From Psilocybe cubensis (Eukaryota), in assembly GCA_017499595.2 (NCBI GenBank), contig CM038998.1:4340001-4404000 (forward strand): a stretch of DNA of 64,000 nt. Direction: 5' to 3'. This document shows positions 53,861 through 60,810 of this stretch, one piece after another. Within the stretch, counting starts at the first letter, position 1, and the number at the start of each line of letters is the position of its first letter. Both the position numbers and the translations under genes were made by a program. The notes under the pieces are model-generated. The model saw only the letters and a program-made list of their open reading frames with translations. It ran no database searches and had not been told where the DNA came from.

Positions 53861-55054
53861 AAAATCCCTTCATCGTGAAGTAATTTCTTGCCGGTACCCC
53901 TTTTCTCTTCTTTGAACTTCGGCATTGTATCTGATGCCGCGTTGGACGTCCTAAAAATAAACTTCGATCAATTGTCCTGTAGGATCGGTTATCAGAAACT
54001 TCAGTAGATACATACTAGAGGTAGAGATAACACATATCGTTGGCTGTGAACTCAAGTTCCTTACGATAGGGTCAAAAATTCTTACACTGACAGCCAAACA
54101 TTCATGCCAAATTTGCTGACACCCAAGGTTGACTTGAAATTCCAACTTGGACTCCCTGAATCCACCCTTACGACGCCATCGATAGAAGATTGTACCCGGA
54201 AGACGGATAATCAACCGTAGTCTGCTGAGTATTTTATCGCTCTATTTCTAGGCCTATGATCACTGATTATGGGCATGACGTATTTCCCTGCGGTAGGGAC
54301 ATGCTATCTGTTCTAGAAGTCCTGCTCATCCGGGCCTCGGTGCTTGAATGCCAAGCCTTTGCAATCGGTATATGAATGGGTGAATAGTCTAAACTACGTT
54401 GATGACCAGTGATTACTATCCCAGCAGGAAGTTTACTGTACCTAATCAGGGAGAAATGAATGAGGTATTAATTGATCCGGGATCACCTTTGACGCCCCGT
54501 CTTGGCGCTGGTTGACGACCTTGCGAGAGGAACAGGTAACTGCATAATCAGGCGATGACTGGCGACATCGAATATAGCCTCTAAATCTGCATTTAAAGGT
54601 CTTTCTACTATGGATCAATAGAGAAAACAGTCATTCCCAGGTGTCTTGATTATCCAAATCCAACCACCTTACTTCATCCACCTTCGGGTCAACAACTTAC
54701 GAGGCATGTTATTCCAACTGTTTAATTTTGAATGCGTCACATAACTGTCCAGCTCTGCCAAGCAATGATAACATCTCATAATAGAAGGGTAAGCCAAATT
54801 CCCTCAGGCCAAAATCCCGCTGCGATGTTTTTGCCAGTGGGCATGCTCAATTTATATCCCACTGACATCAGTAACAGTTACCAGATCTCCCATCGCACAA
54901 AAGGCGACATATACAACCCTTGTCTTCTGGATTGACGCGCCGGACTGTGAGTTGCTATTACTAACTGGTTGTGAACTAGTTCTATAAAGGTCATTGAGGG
55001 CATAATCTCTTTCCCATCCCTCATCCTTCCCTTCCTAGACCCAAATTACTTCCC

Positions 55055-57339
55055 ATGGCTGTTAGAAGAAATGGACTCGCTTTGGGCGTGCTGCTCATTA
55101 GAGCCTCTATCGCCACCCCGTATTTGCGCCCACTGTCGAACACCACCTCTATTATCACTATGGGAAACGGCGGCACTGAGAGAGGTTCTCGCGAATTTTG
55201 GTACCATCTAGCAATCAGTGTCGTACTTGTCCTTGCTGGAGGAGTTTTTGCGGGGTACGCGGGTTTAGTTCTTGTCACCGCTGATGATTTTCATAACCCC
55301 GCCTTCGTATAGATTGACCCTGGGGTTGATGGGCCTAGATGAACTCCATTTGCGTGTGCTGGCCACATCTTCTGAGAATTTGACGGAGAAACGGAATGCA
55401 CAGAAAGGTGCGCTGAACAGTTATTTGACATGGAAGATATCAAGACATGAAGGATACATAGTACTCAATCTTCTACGGAGGGGTCGTCACTGGGTTCTTG
55501 TTGTGCGTTCGATGCAAATCCATGCATTATTCAACATTCTGATGATTTATACCGACAGGTTCTTCTGTTATCAAACGTGGTATGATGCTAAAATTGTTGT
55601 AATTTAGATAGATCTGTACTGACCACTGTGGCTAGATTGTCAACGAAAGTTTGCCCATTTTCTTGGATAATGCTGTCAGTAATTCGCTATCAATCCACTT
55701 ACTTGAAATCGTACCTAAAACACATCCCAGATTGGAGGCGGAGTAGCAGCCATTGCTATCTCAACCACTGCAATCGGTGAGTTGGCAATGATGTATATGG
55801 GTCGTCTTCGCTAATTCTCCGACCGAATCAGTTATTTTTGGGTGAGCTCGTTCTTCGAATAACGCTATAGTATTTATTTACAGGTGGTTTGGTTTTACAG
55901 AGAGTCAGTATTGAAATTTGAAACGTCAAGGCATTTGTTGCTGACGATTGATTATGAATGTAATACTTTACAGGGTAATCCCACAAGCCGTCAGTGTCAG
56001 GTACGGGTTGTATGTTGGCGCAACCTGTGCACCTCTGGTGCTGGTCATGATGTTTATCTTTGGTAAAGCTAGATTCAGAAACCCTAGTGGAATTCTATTG
56101 CTGATATCGTCTAGCTCCCATTGCGTATCCCATTGCCAAGCTTCTAGACCTCGTCCTGGGGGCGGATAAGCACCAGCTTTACAAGAAGGCAGAGCTCAAA
56201 TCGTTCCTCCAGTTCCATCGTGCGGGGGAAGAGCCACTACGGGATGACGAACTAGCGATTCTGAATGGCGTCCTGGAACTTAACACTAAGAATATAGAGT
56301 CAATTATGACACCCCTTCGTGTACGTATCGAATTCTGGCCTTCTGGACGCTTTTTTAGGGTCTAATTGGTGTACATAGGACGTTGTCATTTTGAGCACGG
56401 ATGATATTCTAGATGAAACAGCTGTCGCAGCCATGTAAGTCATGGCGACCATTCTTGAATAGGCTTATTGAACTACCATTTTTGCTAATTTATCTGTACT
56501 CCTTCTTAGGCTACAGAGTGGCTACTCGCGATTTCCCGTTCACGAAGCAGGAAACCCAACGTCCTTCGTCGGTCTTTTATTGATAAAAAAGGTAGACATA
56601 AAACAATTTTGAGATTGTTCACCCCAACTGATTTTCAATGATTTAGCTTCTCACGTATGATGCAAAGAAAGCTCTTCCTGTTTCTTCGTTCGCCCTGTCT
56701 ATTCTTCCAGAAGCTCATCCGACGTTGAATTGCTTCCAAGCCTTGGACTATTTGTGGGTTTTCCTCGGTAATTGATGCTTTGTGCGTTATTATGAACACT
56801 ACAACTTGAAGCCAAACCGGACGGGCACATCTTTTGCTTGTCAGCAGAACACCTGGAAAGGCTGGTGGGGCCATGGGTGTGATAACTCTCGAAGGTCAGT
56901 GTACAAGTAGACGAACATGGCATTTTGCGCTAATCGTGCTCCATTTGTAGACATCATTGAAGTTCGTTTCCTGGTGTTGGTATTCTACATCTATTAATTT
57001 GATTATTACAGGAAATCATCTCTGAAGAAATTGTCGACGAAACTGATCAATACCAAAGCAACCTTACCAGAGACAAGGCGAGACGCTCTACAACGTCAAC
57101 CATCATGCAAGGGTACTTGTAAATTCCGTAAATTCTGCAGAGATTGCACTAATTCTCTTAATTAAAGCATCGTCGAGCGCCGAAGTCCGTCAAATTGGCC
57201 GTACGAGATGTTCAATGAGAGTACAGCTTTATTAGGGCTGAATAGCCGTTGCGCTTCTCTTGATCAAGGGCAGCAGAGGATATATACGGGTCGTTACTCA
57301 CAGGAAGGGACGTTTCCTAGAAGTGTCTCCCACCATTGA
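55055..57339 (+). CDS. CNNM/Mam3-type DUF21-CBS metal transporter, tandem copy 1, highly multi-exon
   Basis: [76 protein letters not shown]. Confidence 0.9.
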
Positions 57340-57702
57340 TAGCTCCCCATTGCAATTGCCCACATCCTTATACCAAGAAAGCGACTTTTGTGTCTCGAAG
57401 TTCATGTAAATATCATTAAAGCATTTATATAACAAGGGAAATTCTTGTAATATATTATGCTTAAAGCAACTTATCCCTATACACATGCAATTCTTTTATC
57501 TTATCTGGTAGCACACGCATAGGAATTCAATATTTCATGTTCGCTTTAACTAAAGGCCCCTATTATTAGCCCCTATTCGCATTCGAGCTGATCTTGGCGC
57601 TTACGACGTCAGTGATTACGTAAGGACCAAGGGTTCTAGTTGTCGACGCTCGTCGCTGCCGCCGTCGCCAACGCTCTCATCACATTACCACTACCATCGT
57701 CG

Positions 57703-59799
57703 ATGAGGCTAAGGATACCTACTTTAGTCTTCTTATTGCGTTCCGCAGCCGCATTTCCGTTCTTCCGCACCACACATATACCCGGGGAAGATGAGCCCGC
57801 CGAACCTGGATCTTCCGAGTTCTGGACAAAGGTTTTCGTCAGCATAGGGCTCGTATTGGCGGGCGGTGTATTTGCTGGGCAAGTGGAGACGTGTATATCT
57901 CTTTAAGTGACTAATACGTGACGCGTAGATTGACTTTGGGACTGATGGGGCTCGATGACTTGCACCTGCGCGTACTTGCAACATCCTCGGAAGACTTGAA
58001 GGAAAAGAGAAACGCCCAGAAAGGTGAACGTCGGAACGAGGACTTCTGGATGGTTTATTGATGTATGTCTCTATCAAAGTTTTGAAATTGATGCAAAAAG
58101 GGCGGCACTGGGTTCTTGTGGTACGTCTCTTGACTGTTGAATACGTCTCGCCCTAAACTAACTCGCTGCTGTAGGTACTGTTGTTAGGAAATGTGGTAAG
58201 TAAAACACATGTCAGACCGAATGAAGCTATTTGATTTTTTCTAGATCATCAACGAAAGTTTGCCAATCTTTTTGGATAGCGCCGTACGTGTGTTTCACAG
58301 ACTGGTGGTTGGGTCTCATGAGCAATTCTAGTTGGGTGGAGGAGTCGCGGCTATTGTTATTTCTACCGCTGCTATCGGTGCGTTCGTCATTTTGACCGAG
58401 ATGGTGATTCTAATGCGCTTCTTACAGTTGTTTTCGGGTGAGCGTCTACGTTTTTATTGCCATTCCAACATTTAACGGCCTTAATCCCGTATTTAGCGAG
58501 TGAGCACCTCTTTCTTTTCTTCATCGCGTTTCGTCTATAATGCGAATATTAGAATCATTCCCCAAGCTGTGAGCGTGAGGTACGGATTGGCCGTCGGTGC
58601 GACGTGTGCCCCTTTGGTGCTCTCGATGATGTACATCTTCGGTACGAATCTATCCACGGTGCGATTTCATGGGGCTAACAAACTATCGGTCTAGCTCCCA
58701 TCGCTTGGCCCATAGCTAAACTTCTCGACTATGTGCTTGGTGCTGGAGAGCATCACACGTACAAGAAAGCTGAATTGAAGTCCTTCCTGCAGTTCCACCG
58801 GACCGGTGAAGAGCCGCTTCGTGATGATGAAATTGCCATCCTGAACGGCGTTTTAGAGTTGAACACTAAGAACGTTGAGACTATTATGACCCCTCTCAAG
58901 GTATATTACTTTACTTTTGCCTTGTATTAACTGTTCGAATGACCCGTCGTACCAGGATACCGTCATACTGAGTGCGGATACGATCTTGGATCATAAAGCC
59001 GTCGATGCAATGTACGTGCAGTGTGTATTATTTCGGTGTCGCCTGACTGAAGTCGATGAAAAGCATGTTGAGCGGCTATTCGCGGTTCCCCGTCCACGAA
59101 CCCGGAAATCCGCTCTCCTTCGTTGGTCTTCTGCTCATTAAGAAGGTAGGTGTGATCCAAACGAAAAGACTTGGCGATAACGCTTCTTTCCTAGCTCCTT
59201 ACCTACGATCCCAGCAAAGCTCTTCCTGTCTCTGCTTTTCCATTGGGAATCCTGCCTGAGGCCCATCCATCCATTAACTGCTTCCAGGCTTTGGACTACT
59301 TGTATGAATAACTTTACTCCCACTCAAAATCTGTCCTAAATTCAACCAAATAGCCAAACAGGTAGGGCGCATTTGCTTTTGATCAGCCGTACGCCTGGTG
59401 TTGCTGGAGGTGCGATCGGTGTCATCACACTCGAAGACGTCATCGAGGTATGGATGCTAAATATATCTTATCCTCTCTCTGACAGCTACCTCCGACAGGA
59501 AATTATCTCGGAGGAGATTGTGGACGAGACAGATAGGTATGAAGACAACCAAAGTAAAAGACGCGCTAAACGGGCCACGACGGCTGCTGTCATGCGAGGG
59601 TTAGTCGGGATGTAATATTTGTCTTCGTCATTTGACCTGTTTTTTGCGTAGCATCGTGGAACGCCAGAGACGCGCCACACAAGACTCAGAAAGGACGCCA
59701 CTATTGGTCGACACGTCAATACCGAACGCTTCACAAGAAGGAAATACTTTATACGGGACTACGAACGGAGTAGTCAGCGAGTCACCGAAAGATTCGTAA
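57703..59799 (+). CDS. CNNM/Mam3-type DUF21-CBS metal transporter, tandem copy 2, highly multi-exon
   Basis: Same motifs as copy 1; stop TAA at 59797-59799. Confidence 0.9.
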
Positions 59800-60810
59800 G
59801 ACTTTCGAGTAGATATGTGGCTTTCAACATATCGCAGATCATTATCTATTGTGGTCCGCGGTCTACTATTTTTAATCATTTATATGCTAGTTTTGTCATG
59901 TGTTGGGTCTGTTTTTTTTTGGTGGCGGCATTTGTTACAGAGAGCAGCTCGGGCGTAAGGGGACGCATGGTGAACTGGCCTTCACATTTACTGTTCTAGC
60001 ACTGAAGAGATCATTAGGTGGATTCCAAAGAACCTTCTATCAGCATCTACCCCTACCGCTTCGCAGCACTTAATGTCTTTTACTTTTTCCGCGTCCAGTG
60101 TCAGATGGCTCAGCATAGGAAGTCACATTACAAAAACGAGCCAAAATCCTGGAGCGGGGTCTTGCCTTACAAGATCCGTTAACGAACCATTTGACTGGAC
60201 GCAAATCGATAACAGGTGCTTTTTCAAAACTGTGAAGTTCTTTTGGAAATTCCGGTCTATTTTTGGCACTAACGCCCACACATTGCGGAGTTTTAAAACG
60301 ACTTGTGGCTCATAATCGAAAGTTTTTTGATTATGTTTTCTAAACAAAAAGATCCACAAATACAGGTTGACATCAGGTTGAAATCACTTTCAAAAATTTC
60401 ATGAGCAAAATTGTACATTGGCTGTTTGCGCTTCGCCATGCTCCAAGTCTCCCAACAGGTACACACTGCAAAACGCCGGAAATCGCCCATGTGCTTCCAT
60501 GTGTGTGAATCCTCAAACGATTGTGTCTATGGTTTCAAGTGACTCATACCACCCTATTGACTGTTCTAATCTTGTAATCTTCAGAGATGACCGTTTTAAG
60601 AGCGTAAAATACAGAGCCTGCTCTCTGGGTACTGATCCTTATCTTATTGTGTACGAGGGTAATGTGTTGGGGTATAAAACTTCGATAATGCATCTGTACT
60701 TCAACTCAAGCTTCCTCCTTACTCGCCAGAACTTGAACGCTGAAGGAGTAACCCTCTGGTGCCTTTCCCACACCCTTATACAGAGAACTCTCGCCGAAAG
60801 CTTGTATACC

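What the first reader, a model, noticed from the sequence alone, without database searches (positions are those of the whole stretch)
55901..58499. 3-nt micro-exon supplies the conserved Glu of the CNNM GExxP motif in both tandem paralogs
Seen in copy 1: ...TTTTACAG|AGA|GTCAGT (exon 55901-55903). Seen in copy 2: ...ATTTAG|CGA|GTGAGC (exon 58497-58499). Splicing through them gives GGA GAG GTA (G-E-V-I-P-Q) and GGC GAA ATC (G-E-I-I-P-Q). Skipping stays in frame but deletes only the Glu. Known: the GE of the DUF21 GExxP motif contributes to the Mg2+-binding site in CNNM/CorC transporters. Inference: annotation pipelines would likely miss it, and regulated skipping could switch transport activity off.
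Basis: partly seen in the sequence, partly recalled or inferred. Interest (0 to 1): 0.72.

Follow-up and report, generated by a model that had tools for sequence, protein, structure and literature searches.

The report
Real 3-base exon in mushroom CNNM genes
Two neighbouring metal-transporter genes of a Psilocybe-type mushroom really do contain a three-base exon that supplies the key metal-binding glutamate; it is spliced into the message, is shared by many mushroom-forming fungi, and is missed by most public gene models.

Summary
AGA (55901-55903) and CGA (58497-58499) lie between canonical introns in two tandem CNNM/Mam3-type genes. Fully spliced contigs of two runs carry the 10-nt exon plus these three bases in both genes. 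The run type is only a guess, and contigs cannot show that a minor skipped form is absent.

With the exon, the proteins read VIFGEVIPQ and VVFGEIIPQ. Without it, only the Glu is lost and the frame is kept. The equivalent Glu binds Mg2+ in CorC and CorB.

The exon is old. In 72 of 73 genomic instances from 76 environmental loci, AG|NGA|GT lies 44-64 nt upstream of the IIPQ exon. The N varies while GA is fixed.

Annotation misses it often. Only 14 of 68 motif instances in 76 NCBI models are correct, and 24 lack only the Glu. The matching Psilocybe cubensis model lacks the whole helix.

Nothing supports regulated skipping. All 39 transcript-like contig proteins keep the Glu, and exon skipping makes up 0.5% of splicing events in Coprinopsis.

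Exons of 3 nt are already catalogued in an agaric, so this is a new member of a known kind. The scan has noted other fungal micro-exons on other DNA, but not this one.

The parts
55055..57339 (+). Copy 1 coding region: CNNM/Mam3-type gene, 17 coding exons, 16 introns of 50-75 nt, 453 aa
   Evidence: Model from window coordinates, stop position. All 13 joints of the spliced contigs of X1 and X2 fit the model. Identical to the public Psilocybe cubensis model P0004 except for the parts that model leaves out.
55832..55841 (+). Copy 1 exon 7, 10 nt (TTATTTTTGG), encoding V-I-F-G(2 bases)
   Evidence: its letters lie between the joints. Skipping it breaks the frame.
55842..55900 (+). Copy 1 intron 7, 59 nt, GTGAGC...ACAG
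55901..55903 (+). Copy 1 micro-exon AGA: third base of Gly151 and first two bases of Glu152
   Evidence: table 5c: 13 letters between 55776 and 55974 in X1 and X2; only possible GT-AG source.
55904..55973 (+). Copy 1 intron 8, 70 nt, GTCAGT...TTACAG
55974..56062 (+). Copy 1 exon 9, 89 nt; its first base G completes the Glu codon, then V-I-P-Q-A...
57703..59799 (+). Copy 2 coding region: tandem paralog, 16 coding exons, 15 introns of 48-59 nt, 437 aa, 75% identical to copy 1
   Evidence: Spliced contigs of X1 and X2 (2 of its 12 joints are shown in table 5, 2 more appear in table 5c, and the rest were not printed).
58428..58437 (+). Copy 2 exon 7, 10 nt (TTGTTTTCGG)
58438..58496 (+). Copy 2 intron 7, 59 nt, GTGAGC...TTTAG
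58497..58499 (+). Copy 2 micro-exon CGA: third base of Gly143 and first two bases of Glu144
   Evidence: table 5c: 13 letters between 58377 and 58553 in X1 and X2.
58500..58552 (+). Copy 2 intron 8, 53 nt, GTGAGC...ATTAG
58553..58641 (+). Copy 2 exon 9, 89 nt; its first base A completes the Glu codon, then I-I-P-Q-A...

Best explanation
These are two tandem CNNM/Mam3-type (DUF21 plus CBS-pair) membrane-protein genes of a Psilocybe cubensis-like agaric. In each, the codon for the invariant metal-coordinating Glu of the TM3 G-E-x-x-P motif is split by two ordinary short introns lying only 3 nt apart. This leaves a constitutive 3-nt coding exon (NGA) just downstream of a 10-nt exon. Each flanking intron is a normal 53-70 nt unit with its own donor and acceptor. 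Exon length therefore matters little, as expected where short fungal introns are recognised intron by intron (inference). Because the acceptor AG of the upstream intron and the donor GT of the downstream intron are 3 nt apart, the two introns are probably removed one after the other rather than at once (inference, not tested). The arrangement predates the tandem duplication and is shared across mushroom-forming fungi (Agaricomycetes). Its main practical consequence is widespread mis-annotation of these genes.
For: Shown: (1) The splice-site anatomy is as described and the frames are open only with the small exons. (2) Fully spliced contigs in two runs (two samples, one study) include the 3 nt in both genes, while contigs of two other runs of the same coded organism are unspliced. 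(3) Of 76 anchor instances in 74 of 76 environmental loci, 73 are genomic. 72 of these have AG|NGA|GT 44-64 nt upstream and 70 also have the 10-nt exon. The single miss has only 39 nt of contig upstream. Among 62 distinct sequences the exon is AGA 46, CGA 14 and GGA 2: the Gly wobble base varies and GA is fixed. (4) Three environmental contigs with uninterrupted frames of 310-451 aa read GG-CGA-A straight through. (5) All 39 transcript-like contig proteins have xxFGE. (6) Exact one-residue loss of the Glu in 24 of 68 motif instances of NCBI models, and in 12 of 44 further models, is what a gene predictor produces when it joins across such an exon. (7) Family: PF01595 at 1.2e-29 plus CBS for the 84%-identical ortholog P0005; human CNNM4 structures match at E 5e-70 and align over ivifGEilpqa. 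(8) Exons of 3 nt or less are documented in Coprinopsis cinerea: 27 of 3 nt in 26 genes (passage read).
Against: Neither X1 nor X2 is on record as RNA. That they are cDNA is inferred from the exact removal of every intron, from contig lengths of 1.5-1.7 kb, and from the unspliced form in X3 and X4. Both spliced runs come from one study. Contigs keep only the major form, so 'constitutive' means that no skipped form was seen, not that none exists. The order of intron removal and the intron-by-intron recognition are inferred from general knowledge, not tested. How far the exon extends beyond Agaricomycetes is unknown. Models from Cryptococcus, Phakopsora, Umbelopsis, an ascomycete and a chytrid keep the Glu, but their genomic DNA could not be read here.
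Confidence: 0.9

Rival explanations
1. Regulated switch: the 3-nt exon is skipped under some conditions, for example Mg or Mn stress. This would give an in-frame protein without the metal-binding Glu, which would be inactive or would poison the dimer.
For: Skipping keeps the frame and removes only the Glu. E130A in TpCorC abolishes export while the protein still reaches the cell surface. A regulated micro-exon has been reported in another fungus, Trichoderma Xlr2 (abstract, passages).
Against: No skipped form was seen in 4 spliced contigs, in 3 spliced environmental contigs, or in 39 of 39 transcript-like contig proteins from many samples. Exon skipping is 0.5% of splicing events in Coprinopsis, against 67.5% for intron retention. 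No conserved intronic element beyond ordinary splice signals flanks the exon in 62 sequences. All of this concerns major isoforms only.
Confidence: 0.06
2. Chance look-alike: the AG-NGA-GT strings are accidental, and the true message joins the 10-nt exon directly to the IIPQ exon (G-V-I-P-Q / G-I-I-P-Q), as many public models have it.
For: 24 of 68 motif instances in NCBI models have exactly this form. The frame stays open.
Against: The spliced contigs carry the three letters. 72 of 73 genomic instances keep the exon, against about 0.04 expected by chance. The single intron would be 115-132 nt, where all others in these genes are 48-75 nt. The Glu is invariant in the family.
Confidence: 0.01
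3. The spliced contigs of X1 and X2 are not RNA-derived but come from intron-less DNA copies (retrocopies) of both genes.
For: The run type of X1 and X2 is only a guess.
Against: Both paralogs would need retrocopies at 99% identity or more. Contigs of X3 and X4 from the same coded organism show only the intron-bearing form. X1 and X2 total 18-19 million letters in 31,601 and 37,305 contigs, against 45-46 million for X3 and X4, as expected for transcriptomes. The contigs carry UTR-like ends.
Confidence: 0.01

Closest known systems
Exons of 3 nt or less catalogued in Coprinopsis cinerea (PMC12230235; passages read)
   Same: Same class of fungi and same kind of feature. These are internal coding exons of 1-3 nt between short GT-AG introns, found with transcript data and often missed by annotation. 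The paper reports 27 exons of 3 nt in 26 genes.
   Different: The paper's main-text passages do not name this gene family. [quoted passage not shown] Omitting this exon makes no stop codon, so it is silent to frame-based checks. The Coprinopsis model P0334 does carry the Glu, so the gene may be among their 26, but I could not check that.
CNNM/CorC/CorB Mg2+ transporters: TpCorC (PMC7875539), MtCorB (PMC8242095), human CNNM2 and CNNM4
   Same: DUF21 transmembrane domain plus CBS pair, with the G-E-x-x-P turn in TM3. The Glu aligns with CNNM4 Glu284.
   Different: The fungal proteins have Gly and Ala where the two TM1 serines of the Mg2+ site sit: 73 of 73 close relatives and 61 of 105 broader representatives. 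There is no cyclin-box/CNBH tail within the 437-453 aa. Transport has not been tested. The split Glu codon is a feature of gene structure, not of the protein.
Saccharomyces cerevisiae Mam3 (recalled, no call)
   Same: It is the fungal member of the same protein family, as I recall.
   Different: Nothing about Mam3 was tested here. The search for 'Mam3' plus 'micro-exon' found 0 papers.
Regulated micro-exons: Trichoderma virens Xlr2 (PMC11121469; abstract and two passages seen); Drosophila homothorax 3-bp exon (seen only as a title in the reference list of PMC12230235)
   Same: Very short in-frame exons whose inclusion changes the protein.
   Different: In those cases both isoforms are reported. 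Here only inclusion was seen.

Membership tests
CNNM/CorC (DUF21 + CBS-pair) transporters | CNNM/DUF21 transmembrane domain (Pfam PF01595) | tested here: met
   P0005 (84% identical to copy 1 over 458 aligned positions) scores 1.2e-29, 103.7 bits against a cut-off of 28.4. P0004, the public model of copy 1 that lacks TM3, scores 1.3e-12. The spliced window protein itself could not be passed to the tool.
CNNM/CorC (DUF21 + CBS-pair) transporters | Cytosolic CBS-pair domain | tested here: met
   PF00571 scores 24.5 bits (cut-off 24) for P0005 and 29.1 for P0004. CBS-pair structures of CNNM2, CNNM3 and CNNM4 match at 5.7e-30 to 1e-20.
CNNM/CorC (DUF21 + CBS-pair) transporters | Invariant G-E-x-x-P turn in TM3 | tested here: met
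   FGEVIPQ and FGEIIPQ are present only when the 3-nt exon is included. They align to CNNM4 F-G283-E284-I-L-P-Q.
CNNM/CorC (DUF21 + CBS-pair) transporters | Complete five-residue Mg2+ site (two TM1 Ser, TM2 Asn, TM3 Gly and Glu) | tested here: not met
   Asn, Gly and Glu are kept. The positions of CNNM4 Ser196 and Ser200 are Gly and Ala (column count on the alignment; G/A in 73 of 73 close homologs). One of the two serine contacts in CorC is through the main-chain carbonyl, which a Gly can still provide.
CNNM/CorC (DUF21 + CBS-pair) transporters | Mg2+ (or other divalent cation) transport | not testable with these tools
Constitutive coding micro-exons of 3 nt or less in Agaricomycetes | Internal exon of 3 nt or less between canonical GT-AG introns, present in the mature message | tested here: met
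Constitutive coding micro-exons of 3 nt or less in Agaricomycetes | Kept in related genomes with a coding-type substitution pattern | tested here: met
   72 of 73 genomic instances. AGA 46, CGA 14 and GGA 2 among 62 distinct sequences.
Alternatively spliced (regulated) micro-exons | Both the included and the skipped isoform occur | tested here: inconclusive
   Only the included form was seen, but assembled contigs drop minor forms and no raw RNA reads were available.

The most novel reading that the evidence does not exclude
The split Glu codon may be more than a frozen accident. Because the acceptor and the donor are 3 nt apart, the two introns must be removed in a fixed order. A small, condition-dependent fraction of transcripts could then join across the micro-exon, giving a full-length subunit without the metal-binding Glu. 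That subunit would pair with normal subunits in the CNNM dimer and damp transport. Such a splicing-level rheostat would have been kept since the ancestor of mushroom-forming fungi.
Probability: 0.06. Interest if true: 0.7.

Novelty: new member of a known kind. Interest (0 to 1): 0.42.

Why it matters
This is a clean, transcript-backed case where a single functional residue of a conserved transporter is encoded by an exon too short for gene predictors to see. Missing it does not break the frame, so nothing flags the error. As a result most public models of this gene in mushroom-forming fungi are wrong at the ion-binding motif. Only 14 of 68 motif instances in the first 76 NCBI models are correct. 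The model for the species that matches the window lacks the whole helix. Anyone comparing CNNM/Mam3 sequences across fungi from database proteins could wrongly conclude that the Glu, or TM3, is missing. The locus also gives a compact natural test case, with a 10-nt and a 3-nt exon in a row present in two paralogs, for micro-exon-aware aligners and annotation tools, and for asking how two introns 3 nt apart are spliced.

Tried and rejected
No RNA holder listed: the look-up of sequencing runs returned 5 rows and none is on record as RNA. X1 and X2 are labelled RNA only as a guess, and no raw reads were available. Isoform ratios, intron removal order and skipping frequency therefore could not be measured.

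The window's own genome is not held, so other CNNM paralogs and genome-wide micro-exon counts could not be examined.

Earlier scan notes gave nothing by place or by sequence. By words they gave only other fungal micro-exons on other DNA.

Literature: 'CNNM' plus 'microexon' found 3 papers, all on animals (listing only). 'Mam3' plus 'micro-exon' found 0. The Coprinopsis supplements held as text do not mention CNNM, DUF21 or PF01595; tables held only as figures or not held could still list the gene.

Looked for a conserved intronic element around the micro-exon that could act as an enhancer or silencer. Only ordinary splice signals were found, with a somewhat stronger GTnnGT donor after the 3-nt exon.

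Tried to judge how deep the exon goes from the 'Glu alone missing' signature among 148 representatives at 50% clustering. There were 4 cases, all with the agaric-type sequence context. Named non-agaric examples keep the Glu, but without their DNA this does not show whether the intron pair exists there.

A Pfam scan of the 68-aa exon-10 translation alone gave no family, because the piece is too short. The first attempt at that scan failed on a badly framed L053 reference.

The overlapping alternative AG|TGA|GT inside AGA|GTGAGT, seen in some loci, was considered. It is rejected for the window, because the contigs read AGA and CGA.
Full report
**What is there.** The window region 55055-59799 (+ strand) holds two tandem, intron-dense genes of a fungus. 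Reading the sequence and assembling exons by coordinates gives copy 1 with 17 coding exons (55055-57339, 453 aa) and copy 2 with 16 (57703-59799, 437 aa). All introns are 48-75 nt. The two proteins are 75% identical and share intron positions. The exception is one extra intron in copy 1. Each gene has a 10-nt exon (55832-55841; 58428-58437). An 89-nt exon beginning G/A-(V/I)-I-P-Q follows after 70 or 53 nt. The 3-nt exon gives the third base of a Gly codon and the first two bases of a Glu codon, so the proteins read ..AIVIFGEVIPQ.. and ..AIVVFGEIIPQ...

**Is it real?** One search for sequencing runs returned five holders, none on record as RNA. X1 and X2 hold about 40% of the sampled words and total 18-19 million letters. 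X3 to X5 hold 82% and total 41-47 million. Laying X1-X4 on 55000-59900 showed one unspliced contig spanning the whole stretch in each of X3 and X4. In each of X1 and X2 it showed two contigs of 1.5-1.7 kb with every intron removed.

All 13 joints of copy 1 match my model. For copy 2, two joints are printed in table 5 and two more in table 5c; ten rows were not printed. The aligner could not place the smallest exons and reported them as letters between joints. The joint 55776->55974 carries the 10-nt exon plus AGA, and 58377->58553 carries the 10-nt exon plus CGA, in both runs. Under the GT-AG rule these letters have a single possible source in each gene. The 11-nt exon of copy 1 and the GC-AG first intron of copy 2 are confirmed in the same way.

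There are limits. The RNA nature of X1 and X2 is inferred from the splicing itself, both runs belong to one study, and contigs show presence, not the absence of minor forms.

**Is it more than chance, and how old is it?** The translated exon 10 is 100% identical to a Psilocybe cubensis protein, so the window comes from that species or a very close relative (Agaricales). A scan of metagenome contigs with the same exon gave 76 loci. I anchored on the first bases of the IIPQ exon and found 76 instances in 74 loci; the other two loci are cut off upstream.

Three instances are continuous and belong to contigs with uninterrupted frames of 310-451 aa. These look like spliced transcripts and read GG-CGA-A. 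Of the 73 genomic instances, 72 have AG|NGA|GT 44-64 nt upstream and 70 also have the 10-nt exon 50-75 nt further up. The one miss has only 39 nt of contig upstream. Among 62 distinct sequences the exon is AGA 46, CGA 14 and GGA 2. The Gly wobble base varies and GA never does, which is the pattern of a coding exon. The background rate of AG-N-GA-GT in these loci is 190 in 566,750 bases, about 0.04 per search window. Two loci carry two tandem copies, each with the exon, so the exon predates the duplication.

**Family and the role of the Glu.** A correctly modelled ortholog (P0005, Galerina, 84% identical to copy 1) matches Pfam CNNM/DUF21 at 1.2e-29 and CBS just above threshold. It also matches full-length human CNNM4 structures at E 5e-70, with the motif aligned to F-G283-E284-I-L-P-Q. 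One deposited CNNM4 chain has Ala at that Glu.

Passages of the TpCorC paper (PMC7875539) state that Glu130 coordinates Mg2+ directly, that E130A loses export, and that it equals CNNM2 Glu357 and CNNM4 Glu284. Passages of the MtCorB paper (PMC8242095) call the Glu invariant, place it in a pi-helical turn of TM3, and note the CNNM2 E357K disease mutation.

One reservation applies. By column counting on the alignment, the two TM1 serines of the Mg2+ site are Gly and Ala in these fungal proteins. This holds in 73 of 73 close homologs and 61 of 105 broader representatives. The site is therefore not identical, and the transported ion is not established.

**Annotation.** Among the first 120 database hits, 76 are NCBI genome models. 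These hold 68 motif instances in 65 models: 14 are correct, 24 lack only the Glu, 13 lack both small exons, and 17 are otherwise mis-modelled. Eleven models have no motif at all. The P. cubensis model P0004 joins ..ISTTAI directly to APIAYPIAK... That drops the 10-nt, 3-nt and 89-nt exons together (102 nt, in frame) and so removes TM3. The same model also reads into the last intron. Models from P. cyanescens, Gymnopilus and Panaeolus fuse the two tandem genes into 875-929 aa.

A second search added 44 NCBI models: 28 correct, 12 lacking only the Glu, 1 lacking both small exons, and 3 other. In contrast, all 39 proteins called on short jgi/Logan contigs under 5 kb, which are transcript-like, have the Glu.

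**Regulated skipping.** Skipping is in frame and removes only the Glu. Skipping the 10-nt exon, or retaining intron 7, truncates the protein at about 143-151 aa. No skipped form was seen in any assembled transcript-like sequence. The flanking introns carry nothing conserved beyond ordinary splice signals. In Coprinopsis, exon skipping is 0.5% of splicing events, against 67.5% for intron retention. I therefore rate the switch idea at about 6%: untested at the level of minor isoforms, but without support.

**Mechanism.** The shown parts are two ordinary short introns 3 nt apart, both removed, with the 3 nt retained. The inferred part is that short fungal introns are recognised as units, so exon length is not limiting. 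It is also inferred that the two introns are spliced one after the other, because an acceptor and a donor 3 nt apart can hardly be engaged at the same time. The donor after the micro-exon is close to GTnnGT in nearly all sequences. This may compensate for the coding-constrained GA at exon positions -2 and -1.

**Comparison with what is known.** Exons of 1-3 nt are already catalogued in an agaric: 89 gene models in Coprinopsis, including 27 exons of 3 nt in 26 genes. The kind is therefore known. I found no paper in the searched library that connects CNNM or Mam3 with a fungal micro-exon. The Coprinopsis supplements held as text do not name the family, although the Coprinopsis model does carry the Glu.

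Outside Agaricomycetes, models from Cryptococcus, Phakopsora, Umbelopsis, an ascomycete and a chytrid keep the Glu. Their gene structure could not be read here. The scan's earlier notes include other fungal micro-exons on other DNA, but not this locus.

**Verdict.** This is a new, well-conserved member of a known kind. Its main value is practical, for annotation and as a test case for splicing of adjacent introns. Interest 0.42.

Noticed in passing
window 56895-57011 (11-nt exon 56951-56961): Copy 1 has an extra intron that copy 2 lacks, creating an 11-nt exon (ACATCATTGAA). It is confirmed by the spliced contigs. A pattern search finds the 11-nt form in 36 of 76 environmental loci and the continuous form in 7, so copy 2 probably lost this intron.
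   Followed up: partly
window 57879-57928: The first intron of copy 2 is a GC-AG intron (GCAAGT...TAG). The spliced contigs of X1 and X2 remove exactly these 50 nt.
   Followed up: partly
window 55559-55579 and 58175-58195: Both genes also have a 21-nt exon, so each contains small exons of 21, 10 and 3 nt (plus 11 nt in copy 1) within about 1.4 kb.
   Followed up: no
window 55055-59799 versus public models P0001-P0004: The public Psilocybe cubensis model of copy 1 lacks 34 residues (TM3) and reads into the last intron. Models from P. cyanescens, Gymnopilus dilepis and Panaeolus cyanescens fuse the two tandem genes into single proteins of 875-929 aa.
   Followed up: yes
copy 1 residues about 60-66 (window 55232-55254) and the same motif in copy 2: The TM1 motif reads L-A-G-G-V-F-A-G-L. 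The two serines that bind Mg2+ in CorC and CNNM4 are Gly and Ala here, in all 73 close homologs, and in 61 of 105 broader fungal-type representatives. The ion site of this fungal branch may therefore differ from the solved ones.
   Followed up: partly
window 55000-59900 versus runs X3 and X4: The genomic contigs of X3 and X4 differ from the window at 31 bases and one 1-nt insertion over 4.9 kb (tables 3 and 4), so they are a different strain or haplotype. None of the listed differences touches the 3-nt or 10-nt exons or their splice sites.
   Followed up: no
loci L004, L006-L008 and others: Where the donor after the micro-exon is GTGAGT, an overlapping second candidate AG|TGA|GT lies 4 nt downstream and would also encode Gly-Glu. 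The window's contigs show the upstream form. Whether the downstream one is ever used elsewhere is unknown.
   Followed up: no
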